A DNA stretch of 64,000 nucleotides from the human T2T-CHM13v2.0 reference genome, Homo sapiens, in assembly GCA_009914755.4 (NCBI GenBank), contig CP086569.2, positions 23,712,001 through 23,776,000 on the forward strand. The letters run 5' to 3'. Every line of letters begins with the position of its first letter. Position 1 is the first letter of the stretch. Position numbers and translations under genes: made by a program. Below are positions 16,501-61,316 of this stretch, in pieces. The notes under the pieces were generated by a model, which worked only from the letters and a program-made list of their open reading frames with translations, had not been told where the DNA came from and made no database searches.

Positions 16501-16724
16501 TCTGTTCTCTGTTTGACACTTTTTGTCATTAAGACTTCATATGATATATCTGAGTGTTATAATCCTTCATGAAGTTTATAAAAGTGAAAAATCCAGGACT
16601 TTACCCATGGCTCTGAGAGTCAAAATATTTCTACTGTGTGAGTCCAAGTATGAGGGTTATTATTTTGTGCACGTGTGCTTAACTAAGATATATGTTAAAA
16701 TTTCACCTGAGAGCAGGGAAAAGG

Positions 16725-20479: not shown

Positions 20480-23400
20480 TCATTGATGGACATTTGGTTG
20501 GTTCCAAGTCTTTGCTATTATCGGTAGTGCCACACTAAACATATCTGTGCATGTGTCTTTATAGCAGCATGATTTATAGTCCTTTGGGTATATGCCCAGT
20601 AACGGAATGGCTGAGTCACATGGCATTTCTTGTTCTACATCCTTGAGGTACTGCCAAACTGTCTTCCACAATGGCTGAACTAGTTTATGTCCCACCAACA
20701 GTGTAAGAAACTCTGATGACAGCTTCTTTTGCTGTGCAGAAGCTCTTTCATTTAATTAGCTCCTATTTGTCAATTTTGGCTTTTGTTGCCATTACTGTTG
20801 GTGTTTTAGTCATGAATCCTTGCCCATGCCTATGGCTTGAATGGTATTGCCTAAGTTTTCTTCTAGGGTTTTTATGGTTTTAGGTCTAACATTTAAGTCT
20901 TTAATCCATCTTGAATTAATTTTTGTATAAGGTGTAAAGAAGAGATCCAGTTTCAGCTTTCTACATATGGTTAGCCAGTTTTCCCAGCACCATTTATTAA
21001 ATAGGTAATCCTTTCCCCATTTCTTGTTTTTGTTAGGTTTGTCACAGATCAGATGGTTGTTGATGTGTGGCATTATTTTTGAGGGCCCTATTCTGTTCCA
21101 TTGGTCTATATCTCTGTTTTTGTACCAATACCAAGCTGTTTTGGTTGCTGTAGCCTTGTAGTGTAATTTGAAGTCAGGTAGCATGATGCTTCCAGCTTTG
21201 TTCTTTTGGCTTAGAATTGTCTTGGCAATGCAGGATCTTTTTTGGTTCCATATGAACTTTAAAGTAGGTTTTTCCAGTTCTGTGAAGAAAGTCATTGGTA
21301 GCTTGATGGAGATGGCATTGAATCTATGAGTCACCTTGGGCAGTATGGCCATTTTCCACAATATTGATTCTTCCTATCCATGAGCATGGAATATTCTTCC
21401 ATTTGTTCATGTCCTCTTTCATTTTGTTTAGCAGTGGTTTGTAGTTCTCCTTGAAGAGGTCCTTCACATCCCTTGTAAGTTGGATTCCTAGGCATTTTAT
21501 TCTCTTTGAAGCAATTGTGAATGGGAGTTCACTCATGATTTGGCTCTCTGTTTGTTATTGGTGTATAGGTCTGCTTGTGATTTTTGCACATTGCTTTTGT
21601 ATCCTGAGACTTTGCTGAAGTTGCTTATCAGCTTAAGGAGATTTTGGGCTGAGACGATGGGGTTTTCTAAATATACAATCATGTCATTTGCAAACAGGGA
21701 CAATTTGAGTTCCTCTTTTACTAATTGAATACCTTTATTTATTTCTCTTGCCTGATTGCCCTGGCCAGAACTTCCAACATTATGTTGAATGGGAGTGGTG
21801 AGAGAGGCCATCCCTGTCTTGTGCCAGTTTTCAAAGGGAATGCATCCATTTTTTGCCCATTCAGTATGATATTAGCTGTGGGTTTGTCATAAATAGCTCT
21901 TATTATTTTGAGATATGTCCCATCAATACCTAATTTATTGAGAGTTTTTAGCATGAAGTGCTGTTCTGTTTATATGATGGATAATGTTTATTTATTGGTG
22001 TATATTGAACCAGCCTTACTTCCAAAGGATGAAGCCGATTTGATCATGATGGATAAACTTTTTGATGTGCTGCAGTATTTTATTGAGGATTTTTGCATCG
22101 ATGTTTATCAGGGATATTGGTCTAAAATTATTTTTTGTTTTTCTGTCTTTGCCAGGCTTTGATATCAGTATGTTGTTGGCCTCATAAAATGAATTAGGGA
22201 GGATTCCCTCTTTTTCTGTTGATTGGAATAGTTTCAGAAGGAATTGTATCAGCTTTTCTTTGTACCTATGGTAGAATTTGGCTGTGAATCCATCTGGTCC
22301 TGGACTTTTTTTGGTTGATAGGCTATTGATTGCTGCCTCAATTTCAGAGTCTGTTATTGTTCTATTCAGAGATTCAACTCCTTCCTGGTTTAGTCTTGGG
22401 AGGGAGTGTGTGTCAAGGAATTTATCCATTTTTTCTAGATTTTCTAGTTTATTTGCCTAGAGGTGTTTCTAGTAGTCTCTGATGGTAGTTTCTATTTCTG
22501 TGGGATCAGTCATGATCTCCCCTTTGTCATTTTTATTGTGTCTCTTTGATTCTTCTCTCTTTTCTTCGTTATTAGTCTTGCTAGCAGTCTATCAATTTTG
22601 TTGATCTTTCCAAAGAACCAGCTCCTGGATTCACTGATTTTTTGAAGGGTTTTTTTGTGTCTCTAACTCCTTCAGTTCTGCTCTGATCTTAGTTATTTCT
22701 TACCTACTGCTAACTTTTGAATGTGTTTGCTTTTGCTTCTCTAGTTCTTTTAACTGTGATGTTAGGCTGTCGATTTTTGATCTTTTCTGCTTTCTCTTGT
22801 GGGCATTTAGTGCTATAAATTTCCCTCTACACACTGCCTTAAATGTATCCCCAAGATTCTGGTATGTTGTGTCTTTGTTCTCACTGGTTTCAAAGAACAT
22901 TTCATTTCTGCCTTCATTTCGTTATGTACCCAGTAGTCATTCATAAGCAGGTTGTTCAGTTTCCATGTAGTTGAGCGGTTTTGAGTGAGTTTCTTAATCT
23001 TGACTTCTTGCTTGATTGCACTGTGGTCTGAGAGACAGTTGGTTATAATTTGTGTTCTTTTACATTTGCTGAGGAGTGCTTTACTTAAAACTGTGTGGTC
23101 AATTTTGGATTAAGTTTGATGTGGTGCTGAGAAGAATATATATCTGTTGATTTGGAGTGGAGAGTTCTGTAGATGTCTATTAGGTCCACTTGGTGCAGAG
23201 CTAAGTTCTATTCCTAGATATCCTTTTAACTTTCTGTCTCGATCTGTTTAATGTTGATAGTGGGGTGTTAAGGTCTCCCATTATTACTGTGTGGGAGTCT
23301 AAGTATGTTTGTAGGTTTCTAAGGACTTGCTTTATGAATCCGACTGCTCCTGTATTTGATGCATATATATTTAGTAAAGTTAGCTCTTCTTATTGAATTG

Positions 23401-23724
23401 ATCCCTTTACCGTTATGTATTGGTCGTCTTTGTCTCTTTTGATCTTTGTTGGTTTAAAGTCTGTTTTATCAGAAACTAGGATTGCAACCCCTGTTTTTGT
23501 TTTTGTTTTCTTTTTCTTTTTTTTTCATTTGCTTGGTAAATCTTTCTCCATCCCTTTATTTTGAGCCTATGTGTGTCACTGCACGTCAGATGGGTCTCCT
23601 GAATACAGCACACTGATGGGTCTTGACTCTTTATCCAATTTGCCAGTCTGTGTCTTTTAATTGGAACATTTACCCCATTTACACTTAAGGTTAATATTGT
23701 TATGTGTGAATTTGATCCTGTCAT
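20480..23724 (-). pseudogene. L1 ORF2 remnant (endonuclease and reverse-transcriptase domains, multiple frameshifts/stops)
   Basis: Track ORFs 23476..23724 (MTGSNSHITILTLSVNGVNVPIKRHRLANWIKSQDPSVCCIQETHL..., endonuclease N-terminus), 22016..22429 (…[18 protein letters not shown]…[19 protein letters not shown]…, reverse-transcriptase domain), 21533..21954, 20810..21361 and 20480..20698 all give ORF2p-like sequence. Confidence 0.85.
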
Positions 23725-23989
23725 TATGATGTTAGCTTGTTATTTTGCTCATTAGTTGATGCAGTTTCTTTGTAGCATTGATGGTCTTTACAATTTGACA
23801 TGTTTTTGCAGTGGCTTGTACCAGTTGTTCCTTTCCATGTTTAGTGCTTCCTTCAGGAACTCTTGTAAGGCAGACCTGGTGGTGACAAAATTTCTCAGCA
23901 TTTGTTTGTCTGTAAAGGATTTCATTTCTCCTTCACTTATGAAGCTTTATTTGGCTGGATATGAAATTCTGGGTTGAATATTATTTTCC

Positions 23990-24908
23990 TTAAGGATGTT
24001 GAATATTAGCCCCCACTATCTTCTGGCTTGTAGAGTTTCTGCCAATAGATCCACTGTTAGTCGGATGGGCTTGCCTTTCTGGGTAACCTGACCTTTCCTT
24101 TGGCTCCCTTAACATTTTTTCCTTCATTTCAACTCTGGTGAATCTGACAATTATTTGTCTTGTTGTTGCTCTCCTCGAGGAGTATCTTTTAGGCATTCTC
24201 TGTATGTTTTTGAATTTTAATGTTGGTCTGCCTCACTACATTGGGGAAATTCTCCTGGATAATATCCTGCAGAGTGTTTTCCAACTTGGCTCCATTCTCC
24301 CCATCTCTTTCAGGTACACCAATCAGATGTATATTTGGTCTTTTCATGTAGTGCCATATTTCTTGGAGGCTTTGTTCATTTCTTTTTACTCTTTTTTCTC
24401 TAAACATCTCTTCTTGCTTTATTTCATTCATTTGATCTTCAATCACTGATATCCTTTCTTCCACTTGACAGAATTGGCTACTGAAGCTTGTACATGCATC
24501 ACATAGTTTTCATGTCATGGTTTTCAGCTCCATCAGGTCATTTAGGGACGTCTCTACACTGTTTATTTTAGTAGACATACATCTAATCTTTTTTTCAAAG
24601 TTTTTAGCTTCTTTGCGATGGGTTCGAACATCCTCCTTTAGCTCAGAGAAATTTGTTATTACCAATCATCTGAAGCCTTCTTCTCTTGACTCGTCAAAGT
24701 CATTCTCCATCCTGCTTTGTTCCATTGCTGGTGAGGAACTGCATTCCTTTGGAGGAGAACAGGCACTCTGATTTCTAGAATTTTCAGCTATTCTGCTCTG
24801 GTGTCTCCCCATCTTTGTGGTTTTATCTACTTTTGTTCTTCGATGCTGATGTATAGATGGGGTTTTTGTGTGGATGTCCTTTCTGTTTGTTAATTTTCCT
24901 TCTAACAA
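23990..24908 (-). pseudogene. L1 ORF1 remnant (frameshifted; ORF1p coiled-coil/RRM region)
   Basis: Track ORFs 24666..24908 (MGRHQSRIAENSRNQSACSPPKECSSSPAMEQS...), 24189..24464 (MEERISVIEDQMNEIKQEEMFREKRVKRNEQSLQEIWHYMKRPNIHLIGVPERDGENGAKLENTLQDIIQENFPNVVRQTNIKIQ...) and 23990..24196 all give ORF1p-like sequence. Confidence 0.85.
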
Positions 24909-27900
24909 TTAGGACCCTCAGTTGCAGGACTGTTGGAGTTTTCTGGAGGCCCACTCCACACCCTGTTTGCCTTGGTATCACCAGCAGAAGCTGCAGAACA
25001 GCAAATATTGCCGAACAGCAAGTATTGCTGCCTGATCATTCCTCTGGAAGCTTCAACTCAGAGGGGCACCCAGTTGTGTGAGGTGTCAGGTGGCCCCTAC
25101 TGGGAGGTGTCTTCCACTTAGGCTACTCGGGGTTCAGGTACCAGTCTGTCCATTCTCAAATCTCAAACTCTGTGCTGGGAGAACCACTACTCTCTTCAAA
25201 GCTGTCAGACAACAATGTTTAAGTCTGCAGAAGTTTCTGCTACCTTTTGTTCATCTATGCCCTGCCCCCAGGGGTGGAGTCTACATAGGCAGGCAGGCCT
25301 CCTTGAGGTGAGGTGGGATCCACCCAGTCCAAGCTTCCTTGCCACTTTGTTTACCTAGTGAATCCTCAGTAATGGCAGATCACCCTCCCCCAGCATTGTT
25401 ACCACCTTGCAGCTCAATCTCAGACTGCTATGCTAGCAGTGAGTGAGGCTCCATGGGCAGGGGACCCTCTGAGCCAGGCACGGGATGTAATCCCCTGGTG
25501 TGCCATTTGCTAAGGCCAGTGGAAAAATGTAGTTTTAGGGTGGGCATGACCCAATTTTCTGGGTACCATCAGTCACGGCTTCCCTTTGCTGGGAAAGGGA
25601 ATTCCCCAATCCCTTGCATTTCCCAGGTGAGGCAATGCCCCTCCCTGCTCTGTGGGCTGCACCCACTGTCTGACAAGCCCCAGTGAGATGAACTTAGTAC
25701 CTCAGTTGGAAATGCAGAAGTCACCCACCTTCTGCATTCCTCACACTGGTAGCTGCAGACTGGAGCTGTTCCTATTCTGCCATCTTGGAAGCTCCTCCCT
25801 GGAAAAGAATTTAAACCAAAAAGTCTCAACACTGGGGTGCCAGGTGAAGGATATGACACAGTCTCCTCAACTATAAGGGTGACACCATTAACTATTACCT
25901 AGTTGTGTATATGTCAGTCACAAACTCACATGGGTGCTGGCCATAGTATGACACTCTATACAACATCTGAGAACTTTATATAACATGCATGAGAGTTGAA
26001 ACCTCACTGAGGCCTACATGCTTATATGGACTCACGATCTTACATATTGCACTAAACTCAGATATGACAGTCAACATCTCTCTTATATGCTGGCTTCAAG
26101 GATGACAGCATTATTGGGTTTGTGAGCTGGGTCCAGAACTGAGTGACCATCCCACCTGTGGCCAGATTCTTTGATAAAAATTACAATTTCATCTTTGTGC
26201 TGTGTTTACTTATTAGATTGAGGACCTCAACAATGAACGTTGTAAACGCAGGATGGTAATAACTTTTACTTTCACATGAACGTGTTGTGTAAAATCATGA
26301 TACTAACATTTTTCTGGACCCTGTTATAAAATTCTCTACCACCTAAAAAGTTTTTGTGAGATGAGTTATTGTTGTAAAATTCTGTGAGCTTGTTCACATA
26401 TGCAATTAAAGGCTTTACCTACTGACTTAAACCTAGTCATGAAAGGCAAAACGTCTCGTACTGGCTGAATCCCAATAGAAGCATGATCATCATGCTTTTG
26501 AACTGAAGAAAGGTATATGTTATAATCAAATTTGTGGGCAAAAAAAATCGGCAGGAGGTTGATATCACTTAGGTGTTGTGGCAAGAAGTATGACACAATG
26601 CCTTGTCTATGCAGGTCTTAGGAAAGAGGGTCACAATAATTGGGCTCTGGAGCCAGCAATATAACACAACTTCACATAGAAGAAACCCAGCAAAATAAGG
26701 AGACTCAAAACACCTATGGAAATGGGCCAAAGGTATATCAAAATACCTGCTCTGGCTCTGGCACAGGCTGGAGAGTCACATCATTAGTGTGCTAGGCCCA
26801 GAAATATGCTGAAATTCCCTCTTTATGCACGACCTAGGAATAAGTGTAACAGAATCCAGGTGTGGGGCCCTGAACTACAGCAAAAGTCCTGTTTGTAGGC
26901 AATTTTTGGCAACATGATGAGAGTCACATTACCTAATTGCTGGGCTCATCAACACATCACAATCTTCTCATTGTAAAGGCTTAGACAGAATAAGAGACTC
27001 ACATCACTTAGGTCATGGGCTCAAAGATATGGCCCAATGCCACAAGTAGGCAATACTCAGGCAGAAATAAAGAGTCATAACACCTAGATGCTTTTTCAGG
27101 TATATGTCACAATTTCACCTGTGTCCAGTCCTTCCATCCAGTCCTTTCTGTCAGCTGGGTGTGCATACAAGACTCACAATTTCAGCTGTGTGCTGAGCCC
27201 TGCTTTGACTCTGTCTGTATAACCCAAAGACTTTGGAAAATACATGTGAATGTTGTAATCTTTTGTGACCTTTGTAGAAGAAGGCGATACAGGACATCAT
27301 GCATGTCCCTAAATCTAGTTATAAGTGTCAAAATATTCTCTATAGGCTGAGTACACATATGAGAGTCATTATCACTCCTGTGAGTCATGCCTAGGTATCT
27401 GTTACAATATTCTCTGTGGTTATAAAGCAGGAAGAATAGTCATATCACCTAAATGCTGGACTGTACATATTCCAATATTCTCTTTGTAGGCAGGGTCCTG
27501 TCAGAAATCTCACATAATTTCTGTGCTAAATCCAGCTCTGTGGCACAATGTCCCTTGTGGGTAGTGTCCAGACAGAAGAGGAGAGTCATATCACCTAAAT
27601 GTTGGCCCCAAAAATATGTCACAATGACTAATGTTGACAGGGCCCAGAAAAACGAGTCATATCATTTGGATATAGTGTTTAGAAATGCTACAATTACCAA
27701 AGCGAGCTGGGTACAGGCAGGAGAGGGGAGTCATGTAACCTAGGTGATGTGTCCAGAAATATGTTACAATATCCCCTGAGGACATTGTTAAGACAGCAAG
27801 AGTCAAATCACCAAGGTGCTTGGCCCAGGCATTTGACAAAACCTCATTTGTGGGTGATACCTAGGCAGAATTATTAAATCACTCAGGAGCAGTGCAAAGG

Positions 27901-30900
27901 TTTATGTCATGATTACACTTGCGGAAACGTTTAAGAATAAGAATAACTCTCCTGAACATATCCTGGCTTCAGGTATATAAGCTGTTACTAGGCTTTTGTT
28001 ATGGTTTCAGGTATATGGCACAATATCACCTCTGGTCAGAGAGAATGCAAGAAAGTCACATCACATAAGTGGCTGTGGCTCCAGTGAGATATCACAATCC
28101 ACCTTGTGGACAGGACCTTTGCAGAAGAGTCACATCACCTGGATGCTGGTTTCAGTGACAAAAACCTCCTTGTAAACATGACTTTGGAAATAGAGGAGAC
28201 TCAATTAACCTAGGCAATTGGCCTAGACATATGTCACAATGGCCCTTATGTACAGTGCCAAGGCTGGAGAGTTACCTTACGTTGGTCAGTGGGTTTGGCA
28301 ATATGTCACAATCTCCCTGTGGCTGGGGCACAGGCAAAAGTGAAGAAACATCACCTTAGGTTCTGAGCCAAGTGATACGTTACAAGGTTTCCTGTTGACA
28401 GAATGCAAAAAGGAGAATCCCATCCCCTGGATGAAGTTCCCAGTTATGTGACACAATGCACTGTAACTGCAGGGCCAAGGCAGTACAAGGGAGTCACATC
28501 ACTTACCTGATGGACCTAGATATAGAACACAATTGTCTTTGTAAGCAGGCTTCAGGCAGATAATTCACATGACCTGGGTGATGGTCTCAGTAATATATTA
28601 AAGTGACCTTTGTAGGCAGAGTCAAGGAAGATATCATATATTGCTTTCATGTTTGTTCCACATATGGCACAATTTCATCTGTGGTCTGAGCCTAGAAAAG
28701 AGAGTCCCGCTATTTATGTGCTGGGCAAAGTTACCTGTCCCAATCACATGCTAAGAAAGGTTTGGAAATAATTTCACATCACACACAAGTCCTGGTTTCA
28801 CATATGTGAATCAATCCTATTTATGTTAGGCTAAACTAGAGGACTCACAATCTCAACAGTGGACAGGATCCATGTATAAGAGCTCCGATAACATATTATG
28901 TCAATGAGATTGTGTCATATCACTGGACCTAGTAACCAGGTGTTAAAACTTTTGCTTAAATTGTTTCCCGTGTGTGCATTGTGAGACTCTTCTGCCAGGG
29001 CACTGCCTAAAGGAGATATTGTCACATATCTATGAGCCTATCCACTAGGTGATTTGTCAATTTTACCTGTGCTTTGCTCCCAAAGAACATTATGACATCT
29101 TTTAATGTATCATTTAGGAAATGTGACTTCTCTCTCCTGCCTAGGTCCTGTGCTCTAAAGAAATAGGTACATAGTGCTGAATGCAAAATTTAAATAATGC
29201 AACTCTGCTCTTTATTCTGGAGTCTGCCAACAGAGGACATTTTTAAATATTGTTGAGTCTAACACCTTGAAGCTGCACCCAGATGATATGACTCTTCTGA
29301 CTTGGCACTACCTGCAGAAGAGATTATAATGTATTCTCAGCTCAGAATCCTGGTGATGAGAGTCTCCTACCTTGGTTCTGCCCACAGGAGAAATAGTGAC
29401 ATATACCTGGGTTCAGCTCACATGCACAAATACAGCTGTTATATCTAGACCCAGAAAGAAGAGATATTTTGACATTCTTAACCAGTCTTATGGCCATAAG
29501 TAAAGCAATGGGTCTACTAATTGTATAAAGTTCACAGAGGACTATGACACTCAGGCATATGATATACAGCCTGAATGGTACAAAGGATGTCCTAACAGGG
29601 ACAGTAACCCAGTGCTATTGTGACTCATGTACATACGATCAGCTGATCCTACTGTCATTCTCTCACAAGAATAGCCCCTACAAATAAGGTACTAAATCTC
29701 ACACAAAACAGCTGTCCCTGGTTGAAACTGTTCCTCTCATACATGTGTCTGGTCCACGGGTCTTTTGGTGATGCATGATTCAGCACACCTGTGAAGCTGT
29801 GACTCCCCTCCTGGAACACAATCTTAAAGTGGAATTGGGCATCTTATGCATGGATCATGCTCACTGTTGAGACTGTGACTCCTCTACTTTGGCCCAAGTC
29901 ATAGGGGGTGTTGACTCACATACACAAAGCTGGGATTTGTGTGGGACTGTGAAACTTATATCTGAATATATCCTAGTGTGTGATTAGGACATAAAAGTTA
30001 GCCCAGCTTCTGAATAACTTGACTCTCATTTTTAGGCCATAACCACAGATAAAATTGTGACATGCCTGGACCATGCCCCTAAGCATAGGTGCCTGGGCCT
30101 GCCTACAAATTACACTTTTACATATCACTGGGACCAGCACCAAGGTGATTTGAATTATCTGCCTGAGTGCTGCCCAAGAAGAGCACTGTGGCTGATATCT
30201 AGGTCCATCAGGTAAGTGATGTGACTCCCTTCTCCTGCCTTGGCCCTGCACTTATGGAGCATTGCAACACACAACTGGGTTCTGCACCCAAGTGATGTGA
30301 CTCTCCCTTTTGGGTTCTGCCAATGAGAAGCTTTGTAACATATCACTTTGCTCATCACCTAGGTCATGTTTCTCCTCTCTTCTCTCGACCTGATCACAGG
30401 GGAGATTGTGACATATTGATAAACTCAGCACCAAGGTGTAGTCACTTTCTTACCTTGGTTTTGCACACAGCAGCCATTGTGACATATACCTATGCCAACT
30501 GCCTTGGTTAAGTGAGCCTCCTCTCTTTCTTAAGCCCTTCCCACAGGTGGGATTTTGATATATCACCAAAAACAGTATCCAGTTGATGTGATTCTTCTTT
30601 CAGAGTCCTGCCCACAAGATGGATTGTGACATCTCACAGGACCAGCACCCACCCAGGTGATGTGACCTTCCCACTTGCTCTCCACTCACAGCCGATGTTG
30701 TGACATATACCTGAGATGAGATAAGAGGACTGACTAATCATGACTCTTAAATATGGAGCCAGGTCATATGCTATATGGTGACTCCCATTCCTGAAGCATT
30801 TCACTAATGTTATTGCGACATACACAATTGTCCAGCTCCTGAGTGATTTAATAATCCTGCCAAGGTGTAGTCCACAAGTGAGATTCACCTATATATTTCA

Positions 30901-31038
30901 GCTGCTCACCTTGGTGATTTGACTCTCCTGTCTTAACAATATCCCCAGGAAGAATTGTAACATGTCTCTGAATCCATCTTCTAGGTTACCTGTCTCCCTG
31001 CCTTGCCTCCTCTGCCTGGACTCTGCTTCCACAGGGAT

Positions 31039-31134
31039 TGTAGCATTTTTTTCTTTTCTTTTCTTTTCTTTCTTTTTTTGTTACCTAGGCTGGAGTGCAG
31101 TGGTGTGATCTTAGCTCATTGCAACCTCTGCCTT
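31039..31134 (-). mobile_element. Severely 5'-truncated Alu (3' ~65 bp plus tail) with a 15-bp target-site duplication GGGATTGTAGCATTT
   Basis: TTTTCTTTTCTTTTCTTTTCTTTCTTTTTTTGTTACCTAGGCTGGAGTGCAGTGGTGTGATCTTAGCTCATTGCAACCTCTGCCTT is the reverse complement of the Alu right-arm end (GGAGGTTGCAGTGAGCCGAGATCGCGCCACTGCACTCCAGCCTGGG...AAAA). It is flanked by cagGGATTGTAGCATTT at 31,023-31,038 and GGGGATTGTAGCATTTc at 31,135-31,150. Confidence 0.8.
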
Positions 31135-34100
31135 GGGGATTGTAGCATTTCTAAGCACTGCATGCAAATGACATGACTCTCCTGACTGGTTCCTTCAACA
31201 GAAGGCATTGTTGCACATCTCTCGGCCAATAATTTAAGTTATATGACTCTCCTCTTCTGCCTAGACACTGCTTAAAAGGGGCATTGTGTCATACATCTGG
31301 TTGACACCCCCAAGTTATGCAACTTTTCGTCCAGGAACTTTTCTACAAGTAGAATATTTGAAAAATTCTTGTTCAATAGTTAGGTGACTTGGCAGTCACA
31401 CCTGCTTCATTACCACAGAGTAAATTGTGATATATAACTAGGCACAACTCACAGGCATAATAATGACTCTCATACCCCACAAATAGGAGTAATTTTGACT
31501 CTCACTACTTGCTTTAGAAACATGAGTGATTGAATCTCTCTGCTTTAAAAAAAGGCCACAGAAGATTATAATAGCCTCAGAAATTTTATAAAGCCCTTGG
31601 CTTGTACAGAGAGTGCAATAACAGAATACAACAGAGAGTGTGATAACAGAATACAGAGAGTGCATGGTGAGTCTCATACACACACTCAGCTGGCAGTAAA
31701 GACTGTCACCATCTCATATATATGAAGCCACATGTCACTCCTGAAAACAGGATATGTGTGGGATTGTAAATCTCATCCTGGGAATTTTCTGTAAGTGTGA
31801 GATAAATATTTGCCGAGTACCTTGTGATTGGACTCTCCAAACTTTTTTCATCCCACATATGTAATTGTGATATGTACCTTGAATAACCTCCAGGTGATGT
31901 GACTGTCCTGCCTGAGCCTTGCTGTCAGTAAGAATCATGACATACCACTAGATCCAGCACCCTGGTCATGTTACATTTTTGCCTGAGCCCTGCCTACAGA
32001 AATCACTGTGACATATCACTGTGTCAACAACTTAGGTCACATAAATCTCCTCATTAGAATGGTCCCTGTGCACTGTCAGGGGCAGTAACATACAGTTGGG
32101 CCAGGCACAAAGCTGATGATACTCTTTTGCTAGGGCCATGTCCTAAAAAGGGCATTATGACAAATTTCTGGGTCTTCACATAGGGGATTTTGCTCTACCG
32201 CTTGGGTCATGCTTACCTGTATAGTGACATGTTGCTAGGCTAGGCACAAATGTATTGTTATTCTTTCACCAGGGCCAAGTCTCAGGGGGATATTGTGAAA
32301 TATCTCTGGCCCTATCACTTAGGTGATGTGACTCCCTGCCTGGGTCCTGCCAACATAGAGCATTGAAACATAGGGGCAAAAACTGCACCTATTTGCTCTA
32401 ACTCTCTTGCCTGGGTCCTGTCCTAAGGGGACCTTGTGAGATAGCTCAGAATCCAGCATCAACGTGATGTAGCTCTTTTGCCTGCTTTCACCCCACATGT
32501 AAGACTGTGTCATATACCTAGGGAAGCACCTATATGATATGTGTTATGACTCTTCTCTTCTGCTTGAGCCCTGCCTACTTGGAATATTTGGCCATATATC
32601 TGAGCTCCTGTCCTAGGTGATGTGACCCTGCTTTTCTGCCAGAGACTTTACGATGAGGTAATGTGAAATATTGCTAAGCTTGATACTTAGGAGATATGAC
32701 TCTTCCTTTTTTCCCAAACTGTGCCCGTGAAAAGGAATTCTGACATATTGCTGGGCCCAGCACCCAGATGATGTTCCTCTGCTGCCTTGGTCCTTCACAG
32801 AGAATTATGGCATACAGTTGGGCCCCCAACCCCGATGATGTAAGTTCCTGCCTGTGCCACAGCAACAGAAAGTATTTTAGCATATCTTGGTCCCATGTTG
32901 TAGGTGTGTTTGCTCTCATGATTTATCTGTTTTTCTTCCATATTCGGGATTGTGTTATATTGCTGGGTCTAGCACCCAGTTAATGTAACCCCCATTTCTA
33001 CACCCTGCCTAGAGAGGGCATTGTGACACATTGCTTGGCACAATACCTAAATTGTGCTACCTTCTTGTCAAGTTTTTTCCTACAAATTGGATTATTAAAT
33101 TTACATTCCTTCTATTCAGAGGGATGATGGTCAAATTTTAATTGGGATTACACCAATAATAGATATGTTGCCTCTCATCACTATGCTTATGGCAATAGGT
33201 AAGGTTATGAGTTGCATATTTGTACAAAACTCACAGAATGTTACAACACTAACTCATATTCTATAAACTTATTAGGACAGGGCCCAGCAAAAGGTTAAGA
33301 TCATGATTCTTGGTTTCACATGCAGGTGAGAGCAAAAGTTATCACCATCCCACATTTACAGAGGCCACTGTCAAAGTACTGAGTATAACAAGTAAATAAA
33401 GAACAAAGATGGAATTTTGACTTTCATATATGGATCTTGCTACAGATGAGATGGTGGCTCATTTCTGGACCCAGATCACAGGCATAATAATCAGTCTCCC
33501 ATCTGAACCCAGTCTATAAGAGAGATGCTGACTATCATAACTGGGTTTAAAGCAGTATATAAGATTATGAGTCAATACGAGCATGTATGCCTTAGAGTAG
33601 GTTGCTACTCTTATGCATGTTGCATAAAGCCTTCGGATGCTGCAGAATGTGTCATACGATGATCTAGAAAACACATGAGATTGTGACTCTCACATACACA
33701 CCAAGCTAGCCCTTAAAGGTGTCACCCTAAAAGATGAAGAGATTGTGTCATATCTCTAGGCCCAGTACTCCTAGGTGTTGAGAATTTTCGGCTTAAATTC
33801 TTTACCATGGGTGCATTGTGACACATCACTGGGTTAAAATGATGAAAAGGTGACTCTTCCGCTTGGACCCTGGCACCAGGGGATATTATCACATATCTCT
33901 GGGTCTATCAGGTAGGTGATGTGTCTCTCCTCCCAGTGCCCTGCCCACAGGGGACACTGTGACATATTGCTAGATACAACATCTAGATAAAGCGAATCTC
34001 CTCTGCTGCCTGGATCCTGCCCACTGAAGAAATTGTGACATACCACTGAGTATAAAACCTAGATGATGTGACAGTACCCTTTGTTATGTACTCTGTCAAG

Positions 34101-36812
34101 AGAGGGAATTTTAATATGTTGTTGAACATGGCACCTGGAGGTGTGACTATCCACTATTTTTTCAACCATGTATACAGTGGGCATGATGACATATTATTTG
34201 AGATTGTACCCAAGTGATATAAGCCTCCGGTCTGGGTTGTGCCTACAGAGGAGATTATAAGGTATGCCTGGCTAAGGACCCAGATGATGTGATTCTACTG
34301 TCTTGTCTCTGCCCAAACATAAAATTGGGACTTACTCATGAAATCAGTTCATATGTGTAACAAAAACTTTCAAACGTTGACGCAGCCAAGGGAGATATTT
34401 TGGTTCTCGTTGCCAGTCTTATGGCCATGGATAAATTCTGAGACCTCCCACCTGTAACAATTCACAGAAAACTGTGCTACTCAGGTATATCACATAAATC
34501 ATGAGTGGTACAAAGAGTTTCATAACAGGCACCAACAACCAGGTGCTATTTTGAGTCTTGGATGCACACCCAGCTGACACGATTTTCATTCTCATACATA
34601 AACAGAGCCTACAAATGAGGTACTAAATTTCACACACATAAGCAGTTGAAATCTTAAAATTGTAACTCTCATACATGAATCTGATCCGCAGTTGGTTTGG
34701 TGGCATTTGAACGATGATTCAGCAAGCCTGTGGTGCTTTGAATCTACTAGTGGAGCACAATCTTCAAGTGGGATTGGGGCTCTTATACATGCATCTTGCC
34801 CATTGTTGAGACTCTGATGTCTGTACTTCGACCCAACTCACAGGAGATGTTGACTCTTACACCCGAAGGCAGGACTTGTGTGGGACTATGAAATGTATTT
34901 CTGAACATTTTCGAGTGTGTGCTTTAGAAGTATGACTTTGCCCAGTATCTGACTGTTTTGAATCTCCTTTCTAGGCCCACAGCACAGTTCGGATTGTGAC
35001 ATATGTGTGCTAAGCACCTAAGCAATATATGATATCTTCTTTGGCAGAGGGACCAAGGACATCTTTACATATCCCTGAAAGAAGCACCCAGCTGATGCAA
35101 AACCTTGGCCGGAAGCTTGCCTACAAAGAGCACTGTGGCTTTCATCAAGGTCCATCATATAAGTGATGTGACTTCCTTCTACTGCCTTGGCCTTGCACTT
35201 CTAGTGCATTGTTACACATAACTGGGTACTGCACCCATGTGATGGGACCCTTTGTTTGGAGGGGGTAGATTCTACCAATATAAAAACTGTATAATATATC
35301 ACTTGGCTCAGCACCTAGGTGATGTTTCTTCTCTCTTGACTGAGCCCTGACCACCAGAGAGATGGTGACATATAGGTGAAACCAGCACAAGGTGAGTTCA
35401 CTCTCCTGCCTTGGTCATAAACATAGGGGCCATTGTGACATATACCCAAGCCAATTGCCTAGGTGAGGTTTGTGTCCTCTCCTGCCTAAGCCCTGCCCAC
35501 AGGGGGTTTTAGATATATCACTGAAACCAACATCCGGGTTAAGTGACTCTTCTTCTAGAGGCCTGTACACAGCAAGGATTGTGACATTCAACTAGACAAG
35601 CATCCACTCAGGTGATGAGAATTTCCTTTTTTCTCCATGTTCACAGGTTATATTGTGTCATATATGTGAGAGCAGATCAAAGGCCTAATAACGACCATTG
35701 CACCTGGAGCCTGAAACTTTTTATAGGTGTTATTGTGACACTTTCCTTTGCCAATCTCCTGAGTGATTTAATAATCCTACTCAGTTATAGCTAACAGATG
35801 ACATTTTGACATATACCTGGACAAAAGCGTGATGATTTGACTCTCATGTTTTAACAGTGTCCTCAGAAGGGATCATAACATATTGCTGGATTCATCCTCT
35901 AGGTTGTGTGTCTCTCCTCTCCTGCCTGAATCCTGATTCTAGTGAAGATTTTAGCATTTCTATGCACTGGATCCAAATGACACAATTCTATTGCATGGGC
36001 CCTTTTCAACAGGAGGCATTGTGACATATCTCTGGGGCCATGATTTAGGTGACATGACTCTACTCTCCTTCCTGGGCATTCTCCACAGGGGTATTATGCC
36101 ATAGGGCTTTGCTTAAAACCCAAGTTTTGTGAATTTTCTGTTAGTGTCTTGCCTTCAAAGAGAATATTGGAATAATTCTGACTTAAAATTTAGGTGATGT
36201 GACTGTCCTGTCTGTTTAATAACCACAGAGGTAATGATGACATTTACCTAGGTACAGCTAACAGGCATGATAATGACTCTAATATGGGAACCCAGGCAAT
36301 AAGGTAAATTTTGACTTTTGTCACAAGATTTTGAGACATGAGTGATGTTAAGGACCTTCATCTGGTAAAAAGCTCACAGAAAATCATAACAAACACACAT
36401 AATTTATAACAACCTTGGGTTATATAGAGTGTCATAATAATGCCTAGCAGACAGAGAAAACTATGAGTCTCATATGCACACCCAAATAACAGTAAGGGCT
36501 TTCAACATCAAAGATGAATGAAAGCAACTATCCTACATAAAAAGAGGACATGTGTGGCATTGTAAATCTAATTCCTAGAATTTAATTCCATTGTGAATGT
36601 GATATAAATCTTTCCCAAGCACCTGTGTAATTTCACTCTTCAGATTGGGTCCAGCCTATATATGGAATTTTGATATCTACCTGGGCCAATTTTCAAGTGA
36701 TGTGACACTTCCGCCTGGGCTGTGCTCTCAATAAGAATTGTGACATCACTGGATCCAGCACCCAGGTGATGTTACATTCTTGCTGCACTATGCCCACCCC
36801 CGATAATTCAAT

Positions 36813-37770
36813 GTTATTTCACGTAGGTTCTTTTCTATTTCCCTAAGTGTTGGCTGGTCTGAGAAATAAAGGGAAAGAGTACAAAAGAGACAAATTTTAA
36901 AGCTGGGTATCCGGGGGAGACATCAGACGTCGGCAGGTTCCCTGATGCCCCCTGAGCCATAAAACCAGCAAGGTTTTATTAGCAATTTTCAAAGGGGAGG
37001 GAGTGTATGAATAGGGTGTGGGTCACAGAGATCACATGCTTCAAGGTCAACAAAAGATCACAAGGCAGAAGGTCGGGGTGAGATCATGAGATCAGGGCAA
37101 GATTAGAATCACTAATGAACGTCCATGTCCAGCTGTGCACGCATTGTCATCTTAACAGGGTTCAAGGGCAGAGAACCGGTCTGACTAGATTTTGCCAGGC
37201 TGGCATGTCCTAATCCTAGCACGCCTGGGGATGCTGCTGGAGACTAGGGTGTATTTCATCCCTATCTATATCTGCATAAGGCAGACACTCCTAGGGTGTC
37301 CATTTTAGATGTTCCCCCCTGGGAATGCATTCTTTTCCCAGGGCTGTTAATTATTAATATTCCTTACTGGGGAAAGAATTCAGCGGTATTTATCTTACCC
37401 GTTTTCAGTAATAAGAGAAATATGGCTCTGTCCTGCCCAGCCCACAGGCCGCCAGACTTTAATGTTATCTCCCTTGTTCCCTGAAAATCGCTGTTACCCT
37501 GTTCTTAAGGTGCCCAGATTTCATATTGTTCAAACACACCTGCCCTACAAACATTTTGTGCAGGTAATGCAATCATCACAGGGTCCTAAGGTGACATACA
37601 TCCTCAGCTTATGAAGATGATGGGATTAAGAGATTAAAGTAAAGGCAGGCATAGGAAATTGTAAAAGTATTGATTGGGGAAGTAATAAATGTCCATGAAA
37701 TCTTCACAATTTATGTTCTTCTGCCATGGCTTCAGCCAGTCCCTCTGTTCGGGGTCCCTGATTTCCCTCA
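36813..37770 (-). mobile_element. Solo endogenous-retrovirus LTR of ~960 bp, family not identified (possibly class II/HERVK-like; needs Dfam), inserted into the satellite
   Basis: A non-satellite block interrupts the monomers: the satellite stops at ...TGCCCACCCCCGATAATTCAA and resumes at ACATCATTGTGACATTTCACTG. The block begins TG... (TGTTATTTCACG) and ends ...CA (GATTTCCCTCA). On the minus strand it carries an AATAAA (the reverse complement of TTTTATTAGC at ~36,975) about 80% of the way into the element, as expected for an LTR R region. It is unrelated in sequence to the LTR5 at 16.7 kb. No clear TSD is recoverable. Confidence 0.5.
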
Positions 37771-40700
37771 ACATCATTGTGACATTTCACTGTGTCCATC
37801 ACTTAGAAGAGGATGCCAGGGTCATGTAACAAGAGGGCATTTTGACATATCATAGGCCTATCATGTAGGTGATATGGCTCTTCTGCTTGGGACCTGCCCA
37901 CTTGAATAGTGACACATTGCCAGGCCAGGCACAAAAGTGATTGTACTCTTTTGCCAGGGCCATGCTTTAAAGAAGGCTTTATGACATATCTCTGAGCCTA
38001 TCACCTAGATTATATGACTTCTTGCTTTGCCTTGTCCACATGGATCTTTGTGATATAAGGGTGGAATCTGCACCTAGGTGATATAACTCTCTTGTCTGGG
38101 TCCTGTTCTAAGGGGGACTTATGAACATGTCAGGGCCCAGGACCAGATGATGTGGCTCTTTAGCCTGGTTTCTGCCCACATATTAATTTGTGATATATGC
38201 AAAAAGAAGCACCTATGTAATATGACTCTCTCTTTCTGCCTGAGCCTTGGCTACTTGTGACATTGGGCCATATCTGAGCCCATCATGGAAGTGATGTGAA
38301 TCCCTTCTGCTGCCTGGGTCCTTCATTTACAGTGCACTGTGACACAGAAGTGGGTACTGCACACAGGTGATGTGATTCTCCTTTTTGGGTTCTGCCAACA
38401 GGAAGTGATGTAACACATCACTTGGCTCAGCATGTAGGTGATGTTTCTTCACTTTTGCTTAGGCCCTGACCACACGGAGATTGTGGCCTGTTGCTGGACC
38501 CAGAAACAATGTGAAGGCACTCTCTAACATTGGTACTGCACATCAAAGACATTGTGAGACATATCTAGATAAATTCCTTAGGTCAAATGAGTGTCCTCTC
38601 TTGCTACAGTCCTGCCCACAGACGGGATTTGGATATGTCACTGCAGTCAGCATAAAGGTGATGTGGCTTTTCTGCCAGGGTCCTGCCCAGAAGGTGGATT
38701 GTGACATCTCACTGGTGCCACCTCCACATAGGTGACGTGACTTTCTTGCCTTCTCTATGGCCACAGTTGATATTATGCAATATACCAGAGAAAATTACAA
38801 AAGTCTAATAACAACTCATATGCCTGGTAATTGTGACAAGTACTTTTGCCCAGCTGCTGACTGACTTAGTATTTCTGCCTCTGTATAGCCCATAAATGAG
38901 ATTTTGACAAATAACTGTGCCGCACATATTAATGATTGCTTGTGTTATCTTAACAGTGTCCGCAGGGGGGAATTGTTAACATATTTCTGGACACATATTA
39001 TAGCTTACATGCCTCTCCTTTCCTGCCTGGACCCTGCTTCCTTTGGTAATTGTAGCTTTTCTAAACACTGTATCCAAATGATATGAATTTCTTGCTTGGG
39101 CCCTGCCAAAATGAGGCACTGTGACATATATTTGGGCCCACGATTTAGGTCATATAACTCTCCCCTCCTGCCTCGATACTGCTACAAATGACATTGTACC
39201 ACATAGCTGAACCTAGAACACAAGTTATGTAAAATTTCTGACAGTACCCTGCCTATTAAGAGAATATTGAAATATTTCTAGCCCAGTATTTAGGTGATGT
39301 GGCTGTTCTGCCTGCTTCATAACCACAGAGGGAATTGTAGCATATACTAGGCATGGCTCACAGGAATTATGACTCTCATATGTGGGCTCAGCCAATAGAA
39401 AATATTTTGACTCATAACTAACTTTAGGGACATGCGTGATGTCTTGGATCTCCTTTTTCTGCAAAGATCACAAGAGATTACAACACTCCACATATTTTAC
39501 AAGGTCTTTAGTTTATACAGACAGCATCAAAGCAGGGCTTGGCACACAGGTGAAATTGTGAGTCCTGTATACACACCGAGCCGTGTGTAAGGACTGTCAT
39601 TATTTCACAAGGATTAAGCCAGTTGTCACACATAAAAGCAAGATGTGTGGTATTGTAAATCTCACCTTTGGAATTTTCTGAAAATGTGATTTTGATATAA
39701 ATTTTTGCCAAGCTCCTGTGTAATTTGAGTCTCCAGGGTGGTCCTAGTCCATATATGGGATTCTGATATCTACTTAGGCCAAACTCTAAGTTATATGACT
39801 CTCCTTCATAGGCCCCTCTCTCAGTAAGGATTGTGATATATCACTGGATCTAGCACCCAAGTAATGTTACATTCTTGCCTGTGCCATGCCCACCCAAATT
39901 ATAGTGACATATTTCTGTGTCCACCTCATAGGTGATGTAACTCCTTTCTCTGGAATGGGCCGTGCACAAAGGAAGGATAGTGACATATTGCAAGGCCAGG
40001 CCCACAGGCAAGGATACTCTTTTGGCAGAGCCTTGCCCAAAGGAGGGCATTTTGACATAACTCTGGACCTATCACCTAGGAGATGTGGCTCTCCTGCTTG
40101 GGACCTGCCAACCTCGAGGTGAAATATTTCTTGGCCATGCACATAAGTAGTAGTACTCTTTTGCCAGGGCTATGCTTCATAGAGGACATTGTGATATATC
40201 TCTGGACCTATCTCCTAGGTGAAGTGACTCCTTTTTTGGGCCCTACCCACATGGAACATTGTGGCATAAGCAGAGAAACTGCACCTAGGTGATGTAGCTC
40301 TCTCTGCTGGGGGCTGTTTTAAGAGAGCCTTGTGCTATATCTCAGGACCCAGCACCCAAGTGATGTGGCTATTCTGCCTGCTTTCTGACCACATATTACC
40401 TGTGACATATTCCATGGAAAGAACATAAGTGATACGGCTCTTGTCATCTGCCTGAGTCCTGCATCCTGGGGACATTGTGACATATCTCTGAGCCCATGAC
40501 CTAAGTGATGTGACTCTTTTTCTGCCTGGGCATTCACAGTAGGAGGATTTGGGCACATTACTAAGCCCAGCACTCACAATATGTGACTCTCCCTTTTTTC
40601 CTGAATTATGCCACAATAAATGAAATTTTGACCTATTCCAGGGTCCATAGCCCAGATGATGTCACTCTACAACCTTGGTTCTGCATAGAGAGAAAATTAT

Positions 40701-41422
40701 GACATATGGCATATTGCTGGGCCAAGCACCCTTATGATGTGACTCTCCTGCCCGTTCTTGAGCCAATGAAGGTATTTTGACATATCTTAAGTCCATTATC
40801 TAGGTGTTTTGGCTCTCATAACTTGACTGGGTTTTTTCTGCATGTGGGATGGTGTCATAATGATGGGTCCAGCACCCAGTTAATTTGACCCAATTTCTTA
40901 TACCAGACATGGAAAAAGCATTGTTACATATTGCCTGGCAAAGCGTCTAAGTGATGTTACCCTTCTGCCTAGTTTTTTGCTCATATATGGGATTATGACA
41001 TATGCCTTTCTTCAGTTCACAGGCATAATGATTAAACTTATATTTGGATTCAGCCAATTAAAAAATCTTTTGCCTCTCAGTGTTAGGCTTAGGGCAATAA
41101 GTAAGGTCCTGGGTTGCATATTTTTCCAAGCTCACAGAAGTCTACAACACTAACTTATATTGTATAAACTCTGCTGGTAGAGAGCTTTATAACAGGGCCT
41201 GGCAAAAAGTTCAGAATGGGACTCTCATTTACACACCCAGATGAAATTAAAAGTTGTCACCATCCCACATTTATAATGCCCACTGTAGAAGTTCTGAGTC
41301 TAATGAGGGAATACATCACAAATTTGAAATTGGACCTTTTTTTTTTTTATTTGGATCTGGACACAGATGGGATGGTGACTTATTTCTGAACCGAGCCCAC
41401 AGGCATAATAATAGGTGTTCCT

Positions 41423-41805
<383 letters not shown>

Positions 41806-43016: not shown

Positions 43017-43017
43017 A

Positions 43018-43018
<1 letters not shown>

Positions 43019-43065: not shown

Positions 43066-43066
<1 letters not shown>

Positions 43067-43069
<3 letters not shown>

Positions 43070-61313: not shown

Positions 61314-61316
61314 TTT

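What the first reader, a model, noticed from the sequence alone, without database searches (positions are those of the whole stretch)
28790..28990. Sharp head-to-head orientation switch of the satellite array at ~28,880
Left of the junction, the plus-oriented array ends inside a truncated block C (…CAGTGGACAGGATCCATGTATAAGAGCTCCGATA). Immediately right (…ACATATTATGTCAATGAGATTGTGTCATATCACTGGACCTAGT…) the reverse-complemented marker monomer begins, and the array continues in inverted orientation for 13.5 kb. The two sides are in different higher-order-repeat phases, so this is an inversion breakpoint rather than a perfect palindrome. Such junctions are either real structural features of satellite evolution (inversions within arrays, potential hairpin or fragile sites) or assembly artefacts.
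Basis: seen in the sequence. Interest (0 to 1): 0.6.

Follow-up and report, generated by a model that had tools for sequence, protein, structure and literature searches.

The report
Ancient inverted duplication in decayed beta-satellite
The orientation switch at about 28,890 is real, but it is the inner edge of a very old (tens of millions of years) inverted duplication inside a decayed beta-satellite-like repeat block of a primate genome, which is a known and ordinary kind of structure and not a hairpin, fragile site or assembly error.

Summary
Observation confirmed. A repeat of about 71/76 bp fills 290-42,336. With a monomer HMM, all 193 hits left of 28,890 are on the + strand and all 111 hits to the right are on the - strand. 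Left-arm homology ends at 28,889±2. Right-arm homology starts by 28,904. At most 14 bp cannot be assigned to either arm.

Interpretation partly supported. It is not a perfect palindrome, and the two sides are in different repeat phases. But the right arm (28,906-42,494) is a colinear inverted paralogue of the outer left arm (143-10,476) at 79% identity (K2P 0.25). Both outer ends carry the same non-satellite flank, an ancient L1 ORF2 fragment. So the block is a degenerate, asymmetric palindrome made by an inverted segmental duplication, probably about 55-70 Myr ago.

The two arms later acquired different Alu, LTR and L1PA insertions. Every 21-mer at the junction is unique in the window, and the 201-nt junction folds no better than shuffles (z = -0.02). 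A repeat-collapse misassembly is therefore unlikely, and nothing supports hairpin or fragile-site potential.

Strand switches in beta-satellite are documented. Inverted beta-satellite blocks in the 19p12 zinc-finger cluster were, as I recall, described in 1998. Low interest.

The parts
143..290 (+). Left outer flank: fragment of an ancient L1 ORF2 (...GSITLNNFQIQNKPKVIKALWYQYKSRKRN...). It is cut on its left by the poly(A) of a younger L1 whose 3' end occupies 1-~147.
   Evidence: 148-280 matches the ORF2 region of the window's two L1s (21,207-21,073 and 48,169-48,301) at 62-64%. 143-300 matches rc 42,494-42,330 at 79.5%, with no other match in the array. Sequence read.
290..28889 (+). Left arm of the beta-satellite-like array. 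It holds 193 monomers in + orientation, in about 5 degenerate units of roughly 4.8-5 kb (front / back / tail). It is interrupted by an Alu, a solo LTR and a full-length L1.
4260..4537 (+). 5'-truncated Alu inserted in the left arm. It is absent from the homologous place in the right arm.
   Evidence: Sequence; tile map (4,258-4,750 corresponds to 35,148-34,838).
16726..17692 (-). Solo LTR of 967 bp flanked by a 6-bp target-site duplication AAAAGG. It looks like HERV-K LTR5 (identification from memory). It is specific to the left arm.
   Evidence: Sequence; no paralogue in the window (tiles 16,501-17,500).
20074..25799 (-). Full-length L1PA-type element inserted in the left arm, with a 14-bp target-site duplication TGGAAAAGAATTTA (20,060-20,073 and 25,800-25,813).
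   Evidence: weak RVT_1 match below Pfam's cutoff on the ORF at 22,016-22,429; ~84-87% identity over 5 kb to the second L1, which carries strong RVT_1 and L1 ORF1 domain matches.
27139..28889 (+). Last 'back' segment of the left arm, abutting the junction. Its closest paralogues are 14,509-16,266 and rc 39,596-38,270 (K2P 0.24-0.25), not the sequence across the junction (K2P 0.37).
28846..28914 (.). Perfect 10-bp inverted repeat CACAATCTCA / TGAGATTGTG with 49 nt between the arms. It is the conserved monomer motif of the two terminal monomers, facing each other across the junction.
   Evidence: I4.
28890..28903 (.). Junction interval AACATATTATGTCA, at most 14 bp, that cannot be assigned to either arm. 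It is either filler or sequence diverged beyond recognition.
28904..42336 (-). Right arm with 111 monomers in - orientation. 28,906-36,782 is colinear with rc of left 10,476-2,608, and 39,900-42,494 with rc of 2,387-143. An extra ~3.1 kb (36,800-39,895) holds another 'back' copy, a partial front and an LTR-like insertion.
36848..37773 (.). LTR-like insertion (TG...CA) specific to the right arm. Identity and exact ends are uncertain.
   Evidence: Sequence; no paralogue in the window.
41423..41755 (+). Full-length Alu with an A-rich tail inserted in the right arm. It is absent at the homologous left-arm position (~869-885).
42330..43497 (-). Right outer flank: the same ancient L1 ORF2, read on the - strand and running into the array. 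It is interrupted by an Alu (~42,700-43,015) and (AC)n (43,017-43,065), and cut by the 5' end of a second full-length L1PA (43,498-49,617, +).

Best explanation
The window holds one complete block, about 42 kb long (about 34 kb once transposons are removed), of an old decayed beta-satellite-like tandem repeat. It has monomers of about 71 and 76 bp and degenerate units of roughly 4.8-5 kb.

The array first grew by tandem duplication, giving units that now differ by K2P 0.32-0.40. Later, in a single burst (all pairs K2P 0.245-0.253), several multi-kb pieces were duplicated. One of these was the outer ~10 kb of the array together with its non-satellite flank, copied in inverted orientation to the far end of the array. 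This made a degenerate, asymmetric palindrome: flank > left arm > | < right arm < flank.

Position 28,889/28,904 is the inner breakpoint of that inverted copy. There, a left-arm monomer truncated at about position 50-58 abuts a reverse-complemented monomer from a unit position about 1 kb further along.

Shown: the orientation switch, the colinearity, the shared flank, the two tiers of distance, and the arm-specific transposon insertions.

Inferred: that it arose as a one-step inverted duplication by non-homologous or replication-based joining (no long homology at the joint), an age of about 55-70 Myr, and that today it is an inert fixed structure with no arm-to-arm gene conversion and no cruciform potential.
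For: Orientation: 193 '+' / 0 '-' hits left of the junction and 0 '+' / 111 '-' hits right of it. The skew flips at the same place.

Colinearity: for nearly every 500-bp tile of the right arm, the best paralogue lies in the left arm, in reverse order. 5,293-10,476 versus rc 34,072-28,906 aligns over 4,977 columns at 79.1% identity, K2P 0.248.

Two tiers: in the 'back' and 'front' distance matrices, U1-R2, U2-R3, U1-R1 and U4-U5-R1 are at 0.24-0.26. All other properly aligned pairs are at 0.32-0.42; only the 'front' pairs involving the mis-set U4 coordinates are higher. Direct paralogues within the right arm are only ~69% identical.

Shared flank: an ancient L1 ORF2 fragment occurs only at the two outer ends, at 79.5% identity.

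Age and independence of the arms: the Alus, the LTRs and the L1PA with intact target-site duplications are each present in one arm only. The two L1PA elements differ by K2P 0.145, less than the arms do. CpG o/e is 0.11-0.13. Identity shows no gradient towards the centre.

Not an artefact of repeat collapse: 21-mers are unique, and the longest exact repeat near the joint is 37 bp.

Literature: strand switches are common in beta-satellite, with more than 200 breakpoints on chr1 and the acrocentrics (bioRxiv 10.1101/2021.07.12.452052). 19p12 is interspersed with beta-satellite blocks (PMC3018141).
Against: The left flank beyond the young L1 lies outside the window. So it is unknown how far the inverted flank homology extends, or where the distal breakpoint is.

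The right arm is not a simple copy. It carries an extra ~3.1 kb, and its outermost 'back' segment is closest to interior left-arm units (U4/U5). More than one event, or later exchange, is therefore needed.

The same end state can be reached by a direct duplication followed by an inversion.

No independent sequence of the locus could be retrieved. Reality of the joint therefore rests on internal evidence only.

The date depends on an assumed substitution rate. The ts:tv ratio of 1.1-1.2 is low, which suggests some alignment noise.
Confidence: 0.68

Rival explanations
1. Simple inversion. A segment of a once unidirectional array, plus its right flank, was flipped, and 28,889/28,904 is one of the two inversion breakpoints.
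For: There is a sharp switch with different phases on the two sides and no long homology at the joint. Inversions are frequent in diverged satellites.
Against: The far end of the inverted arm carries the same array-to-flank boundary (ancient L1 fragment followed by the first monomers) as the left end. The right arm is a colinear paralogue of the outer left arm. A prior direct duplication of flank plus ~10 kb into the end of the array would therefore have to precede the inversion. That needs two events instead of one. It cannot be excluded from this window.
Confidence: 0.2
2. Fold-back (hairpin-primed or breakage-fusion-bridge type) palindrome formed at this very point, with 28,890-29,842 as the single-copy spacer.
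For: The layout back | rc(tail+front start, ~950 bp) | rc(back) has the form arm-spacer-arm. A perfect 10-bp inverted repeat brackets the joint.
Against: The two 'back' copies flanking the joint (27,139-28,889 and rc 31,600-29,842) differ by K2P 0.37, the background level of old units. Each has a closer relative elsewhere at 0.24-0.25. Sequence beyond the 10-bp repeat is not complementary. The 10-mer is simply the conserved monomer motif in both orientations.
Confidence: 0.07
3. Assembly artefact: a false join of two contigs or paralogous blocks in opposite orientation.
For: None specific to this joint. Satellite regions are generally prone to misassembly, and no read data or independent assembly could be consulted.
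Against: The sequence around the joint is effectively single-copy within the window. All 21-mers in 28,790-28,990 are unique, only 7 of 1,971 31-mers within ±1 kb are repeated, and the longest exact repeat is 37 bp. The arms are 79% identical, far too diverged for a collapse or flip error. The two arms form a coherent mirror structure that ends in the same flank.
Confidence: 0.03
4. Recent or polymorphic inversion that acts as a hairpin-forming or fragile site.
For: Inverted repeats can in principle extrude cruciforms. The 801-nt region folds slightly better than shuffles (z = -2.3, 1 of 20 shuffles as good).
Against: The 201-nt joint has z = -0.02. The 801-nt MFE of -93.5 kcal/mol is only about 12 kcal/mol below the shuffle mean, nowhere near that of a true palindrome. 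The arms differ by K2P 0.25 and carry different old transposons, so the rearrangement is ancient and presumably fixed.
Confidence: 0.02

Closest known systems
Inverted beta-satellite blocks of the 19p12 KRAB zinc-finger (ZNF91-family) cluster (Eichler et al. 1998, Genome Res 8:791). The paper is not held in the library, so its content is cited from my memory of the abstract: ~25-30 kb blocks of inverted beta-satellite with a symmetrical higher-order structure, dated to about 50 Myr.
   Same: Block size (about 34 kb net of transposons), two inverted arms with mirror-image higher-order structure, and strong decay with L1/Alu insertions. The age is of the same order. The monomer consensus matches the beta-satellite-like primers published for a 19p12 SNP near ZNF208 (PMC5762523). 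PMC3018141 confirms that 19p12 is interspersed with beta-satellite blocks.
   Different: The genomic location of this window is unknown. No zinc-finger ORF lies in the window. The ZNF208-region primers are not present in it. The arms here are unequal, about 21.7 kb against 12.2 kb net of transposons.
Strand switches (inversion breakpoints) in beta-satellite arrays and divergent alpha-satellite in T2T-CHM13 (Altemose et al., bioRxiv 10.1101/2021.07.12.452052)
   Same: An abrupt change of monomer strand inside one contiguous array. It is associated with sequence decay and transposon insertions.
   Different: [quoted passage not shown] Here there is a single switch in a small, highly diverged block, and the arms are recognisably colinear paralogues that include a non-satellite flank.
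Large genomic palindromes, such as the human Y-chromosome ampliconic palindromes P1-P8 (from general knowledge)
   Same: Two inverted arms around a short non-duplicated centre. Here about 950 bp separate the nearest inverted homologues.
   Different: Y palindrome arms are more than 99.9% identical and are kept so by arm-to-arm gene conversion. Here the arms are 79% identical with no identity gradient, so the structure is a dead palindrome.
DUP-TRP/INV-DUP type complex rearrangements (Carvalho et al. 2011, from memory)
   Same: Duplications of equal age together with one segment present three times, one copy of it inverted: 14,509-16,266, 27,139-28,889 and rc 39,596-38,270, all at K2P 0.24-0.26.
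   Different: This is only a formal resemblance in an event tens of Myr old. The order of segments does not match the canonical DUP-TRP/INV-DUP layout, and no mediating inverted repeat pair can be identified.

Membership tests
Beta satellite (Sau3A / BSR family) | Tandem monomer of about 68 bp (Altemose preprint; PMC8125562) | tested here: inconclusive
   Spacing of the 304 monomer hits is bimodal at 70-71 bp (111 intervals) and 75-76 bp (53 intervals), with dimer peaks at 140-146 bp. This is close to 68 bp but not equal to it.
Beta satellite (Sau3A / BSR family) | The conserved block GATCAGTGC (which contains the Sau3A site) in the majority of monomers (PMC2671837) | tested here: not met
   There are no exact copies in about 36 kb of array. 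With <=1 mismatch there are 3 hits in monomer orientation plus 1 in reverse orientation. GATC occurs 78 times for 304 monomers. The consensus has GGTGCTGGGCCCAG where the canonical monomer, from my memory, has GGTGATCAGTGCAG.
Beta satellite (Sau3A / BSR family) | Sequence similarity to the family consensus | not testable with these tools
   No repeat library (Dfam/Repbase) is available. Against the canonical monomer as I recall it, the consensus aligns with few mismatches over its core, CAGAGATATGTCACAATGCCC..TGTAGGCAG..AAGAGT.ACATCACCTGGGT. This is a lead from memory, not a test. Searches for canonical k-mers in the paper library found only the ZNF208 primer.
Beta satellite (Sau3A / BSR family) | Multimeric higher-order organisation | tested here: met
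   There are degenerate units of about 4.8-5 kb (front/back/tail) repeated 5 times on the left and 3+ times on the right, at 60-74% identity.
Inverted beta-satellite block of the 19p12 ZNF cluster | Block of some 25-30 kb made of two inverted arms with symmetrical higher-order structure (from memory of Eichler et al. 1998) | tested here: met
   The net arm lengths are about 21.7 kb and 12.2 kb. The right arm is colinear with the rc of the outer left arm, and the outer flanks are identical.
Inverted beta-satellite block of the 19p12 ZNF cluster | Location between or within ZNF91-family genes on 19p12 | not testable with these tools
   No reference genome can be searched. There is no ZNF ORF among the ORFs of >=110 aa. 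The rs8105767, rs7248488, rs8103163 and rs2188971 primers are absent from the window.
Satellite strand switch / inversion breakpoint (sense of Altemose et al.) | Change of monomer strand within one contiguous array | tested here: met
   193 '+' hits then 111 '-' hits, with at most ~14-20 bp between the last + and the first - homology.
Perfect or near-perfect palindrome capable of cruciform or hairpin extrusion | Near-identical inverted arms with a short or absent spacer | tested here: not met
   The nearest inverted homologues are 71-72% identical and about 950 bp apart. The longest perfect inverted match is 37 bp. The fold z-score is -0.02 for 201 nt and -2.3 for 801 nt.

The most novel reading that the evidence does not exclude
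The burst of equal-age direct and inverted duplications (all K2P about 0.25), which includes one segment present three times with one copy inverted, records a single complex replication-based germline rearrangement in an early primate. On this reading, the resulting mirror-image satellite block, bounded on both sides by the same L1 flank, was retained as a functional module, for example a heterochromatin boundary co-amplified with neighbouring gene cassettes. It would not be neutral debris.
Probability: 0.05. Interest if true: 0.4.

Novelty: already known. Interest (0 to 1): 0.12.

Why it matters
It matters mainly as a negative result. The switch is neither an assembly error nor a hairpin or fragile site, and it needs no follow-up as an anomaly.

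It is a clean small example of how decayed satellite blocks record their history. That history has an early tandem amplification, a later burst of direct and inverted segmental duplications, and then independent transposon insertions that date the arms.

If the window maps to 19p12, it is one more copy of the inverted beta-satellite blocks already tied to the expansion of the primate KRAB zinc-finger cluster.

Tried and rejected
(1) Independent copies of the junction. An exact 33-mer across the joint was absent from metagenome, prokaryote-genome and viral contig collections. A junction-specific gapped pattern (GATCCATGTATAAGA N20-40 GATTGTGTCATATC) was also absent. These collections are not expected to hold primate DNA except as contamination, so the absence carries no weight.

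(2) Exact-protein look-ups. Three window ORFs were tried to fetch the locus from other assemblies: 54 aa next to the joint, 183 aa in the L1, and 120 aa in the array. None is on record.

(3) Placing the window at ZNF208. Published 19p12 primers are not in the window at <=2 mismatches, so the locus remains unidentified.

(4) Fetching Eichler 1998, Waye & Willard 1989 and the chromosome 19 paper. None is held. Their content is cited from memory and marked as such.

(5) Fold-back origin at the joint. Rejected on the distance hierarchy.

(6) The two full-length L1s (inverted, 84-87% identical depending on alignment method) as part of the palindrome. Rejected. One sits inside a left-arm unit with its own target-site duplication, and the other sits outside the array in the flank. 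The positions are not homologous, and their K2P (0.145) is well below that of the arms.

(7) The two ~300-bp elements shared by the arms in direct orientation (4,292-4,524 and 41,472-41,704). These are independent Alu insertions, not part of the unit.

(8) I ran no further search on satellite ORFs. The chance of retrieving primate satellite loci seemed too low to justify it.
Full report
**1. What the window is**

The window is primate DNA, and the evidence is as follows.
- There are Alu elements.
- There are two full-length L1s with L1 ORF1 and reverse-transcriptase domains.
- There is an ERV gag ORF, with LTR12-like tandem repeats, at 60-63.5 kb.

A diverged tandem repeat occupies positions 290-42,336.
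- k-mer spacing peaks at 70-76 and 140-146 bp.
- An iterated nhmmer profile gives the consensus CAGAGATATGTCACAATGCCCTCTGTGGGCAGGGCCCAGGCAGAAGAGTCACATCACCTAGGTGCTGGGCC.
- Monomer spacing is bimodal at 70-71 and 75-76 bp.
- GC content is 42% and CpG o/e is 0.11-0.13.

It also matches beta-satellite-like primers published for a SNP near ZNF208 in 19p12 (PMC5762523). However, the hallmark block GATCAGTGC (PMC2671837) is absent. I therefore call it an old, decayed beta-satellite-like array. No repeat library was available for a formal test.

**2. The observation**

The orientation evidence is clear.
- Every one of 193 monomer hits left of the site is on the + strand, and every one of 111 hits right of it is on the - strand.
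- The dimer profile gave 171 '+' and 100 '-' hits with the same clean split.
- No hit occurs in the 21.5 kb outside the array.
- GC and AT skew flip at about 29 kb.

The position of the joint is well defined.
- Direct homology to paralogous units ends at 28,881-28,889, and inverted homology begins at 28,904-28,906.
- Alignments with five left-type and seven right-type paralogues confirm this.
- At most 14 bp (28,890-28,903) cannot be assigned.
- The left arm stops inside a monomer.
- The right arm runs to 42,336, with homology ending at 42,494. That is 13.4-13.6 kb.

The two sides are in different unit phases. The left arm ends at the position equivalent to 9,449/16,266. The right arm begins at the rc of the position equivalent to 10,476/633.

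**3. Anatomy of the whole block**

Self-comparison shows degenerate units of about 4.8-5 kb, each with a front, a back and a tail. There are five on the left (one truncated) and three and a bit on the right.

Distance matrices for the 'front' and 'back' segments fall into two tiers.
- Most pairs are at K2P 0.32-0.42.
- A few pairs are at 0.24-0.26: U1front-R1front, U1back-R2back, U2-R3 (both segments), and U4back-U5back-R1back.

Long pairwise alignments give strikingly uniform values for the young tier.
- 5,293-10,476 versus rc 34,072-28,906: K2P 0.248 (4,977 columns, 79.1% identity).
- 2,608-4,258 versus rc 36,782-35,148: K2P 0.253.
- 143-2,387 versus rc 42,494-39,900: K2P 0.245.
- 12,797-15,882 versus rc 41,303-38,280: K2P 0.246.
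- 14,509-16,266 versus 27,139-28,889: K2P 0.248.

Direct paralogues inside the right arm are only about 69% identical. Each right-arm unit therefore has its closest relative in the left arm. The right arm as a whole is colinear with the reverse complement of left 143-10,476, apart from an extra ~3.1 kb at 36,800-39,895.

**4. The outer ends**

Positions 143-300 and rc 42,494-42,330 are 79.5% identical. They are not satellite. They are a fragment of an ancient L1 ORF2 that matches the window's L1s at 62-64%, and it occurs nowhere else in the array.

On the right, this old L1 continues for more than 1 kb. It is interrupted by an Alu and (AC)n, and then cut by a younger full-length L1. On the left, it is cut at about 147 by the poly(A) of another young L1, and the window ends.

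Both arms thus end in the same array-to-flank boundary. The block is a degenerate, asymmetric palindrome.

**5. Transposon fossils**

Each of the following is present in one arm only.
- Alu at 4,260-4,537.
- Solo LTR at 16,726-17,692, with a 6-bp target-site duplication.
- Full-length L1PA at 20,074-25,799, with a 14-bp target-site duplication.
- LTR-like insertion at about 36,848-37,773.
- Alu at 41,423-41,755.

The two L1PA elements differ by K2P 0.145, about 0.07 per copy at most. The arms differ by about 0.124 per arm. The arm duplication is therefore clearly older than the L1 insertion.

With commonly assumed primate or mammalian neutral rates, K2P 0.25 corresponds to roughly 55-100 Myr. 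Scaling to the L1PA copies suggests about 55-70 Myr. This date is an inference. It fits the ~50 Myr quoted for the 19p12 cluster (bioRxiv 10.1101/696245, citing Eichler et al.).

**6. Mechanism**

*Best reading (confidence about 0.68).* During a burst of segmental rearrangement in the array, the outer ~10 kb plus its flank was duplicated in inverted orientation to the other end of the array. Position 28,889/28,904 is the inner breakpoint of that copy. It was joined without long homology. The only symmetry at the joint is the 10-bp monomer motif CACAATCTCA/TGAGATTGTG in the two facing monomers.

*Direct duplication followed by inversion (about 0.2).* This gives the same end state and cannot be excluded.

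*Fold-back origin at the joint (about 0.07).* This is disfavoured. The 'back' copies on either side of the joint are at K2P 0.37, while each has a relative at 0.24-0.25 elsewhere.

*Misassembly (about 0.03).* This is unlikely. The joint is single-copy at k = 21, the longest exact repeat nearby is 37 bp, and the two arms form a coherent mirror structure. Read-level proof was not available.

*Hairpin or fragile-site potential.* This is not supported.
- The fold z-score is -0.02 for 201 nt.
- The z-score is -2.3 for 801 nt, with an MFE only about 12 kcal/mol below the shuffle mean.
- The nearest inverted homologues are 71-72% identical and about 950 bp apart.
- Identity shows no gradient towards the centre, so there is no sign of arm-to-arm conversion.

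**7. Comparison with what is known**

Strand switches are a documented, common feature of beta-satellite arrays and of diverged alpha-satellite, where they go together with transposon insertions and decay (bioRxiv 10.1101/2021.07.12.452052). The 19p12 KRAB zinc-finger cluster is interspersed with beta-satellite blocks (PMC3018141).

From my memory of its abstract, Eichler et al. 1998 (Genome Res 8:791) described these as ~25-30 kb inverted beta-satellite blocks with a remarkably symmetrical higher-order structure. That is the structure found here. The paper is not held in the library.

I could not place the window in a genome. There is no ZNF ORF in it, and the ZNF208 primers are absent. Membership of the 19p12 set is therefore a well-fitting lead, not a demonstrated fact.

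**8. Verdict**

It is a breakpoint and not a perfect palindrome. It is best read as the boundary of an ancient inverted duplication rather than a plain inversion, and it is neither an artefact nor a structure-forming site.
- The kind of structure is already known.
- Interest is low (0.12).
- The only mildly unusual aspects are the uniform age of all the younger duplications and the shared non-satellite flank.

Noticed in passing
window 143-42,494 (pairs listed): All younger paralogue pairs, direct and inverted, have the same distance (K2P 0.245-0.253). One 'back' segment exists in three copies of equal age, one of them inverted: 14,509-16,266, 27,139-28,889 and rc 39,596-38,270. This suggests one burst, or a single complex event. 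The ts:tv ratio is only about 1.1-1.2.
   Followed up: partly
window 20,074-25,799 (-) and 43,498-49,617 (+): Two full-length L1PA-type elements lie in opposite orientation (K2P 0.145). The first has a perfect 14-bp target-site duplication TGGAAAAGAATTTA. Their positions are not homologous, so they are independent insertions and not part of the palindrome.
   Followed up: yes
window 16,726-17,692 (-): A 967-bp solo LTR with a 6-bp target-site duplication AAAAGG. It looks like HERV-K (HML-2) LTR5 from memory, which would imply a catarrhine, probably hominoid, source. It contains a 125-aa ORF with no Pfam match.
   Followed up: partly
window ~36,848-37,773: A second LTR-like insertion (TG...CA) specific to the right arm. 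Its family was not identified and no clear target-site duplication was seen.
   Followed up: no
window 19,940-20,048: A 34-bp tandem repeat (3 copies, 82% matches) lies inside the satellite, about 10 bp upstream of the L1 target-site duplication.
   Followed up: no
window 27,111-27,139: There is an internal discontinuity in the last left-arm unit. All paralogue alignments break here (unit phase ~1,884 jumps to ~2,900), so about 1 kb is missing. The 1.75-kb segment that abuts the junction may itself be a separately duplicated piece.
   Followed up: partly
window 12,200-12,797: A ~600-bp piece of 'back' sequence, closest to 27,593-28,160 at 76-81%, sits between two 'front' segments. This is another small rearrangement of the younger tier.
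   Followed up: no
window 1-147: The window starts inside the 3' end and poly(A) of a further young L1, inserted exactly where the ancient L1 flank of the left arm would continue. This hides the left extent of the inverted homology.
   Followed up: partly
window 60,538-63,557 and 63,780-64,000: There is an ERV region with LTR12-like 79- and 103-bp tandem repeats and a 136-aa ORF carrying a Gag_p30 domain (E = 6e-14). It is followed by a CpG-rich, apparently young Alu.
   Followed up: partly
window 55,727-55,847 and 56,662-56,771: Two short, well-conserved two-copy tandem duplications (61 bp at 93% matches, 55 bp at 96%). The second lies inside an Alu.
   Followed up: no
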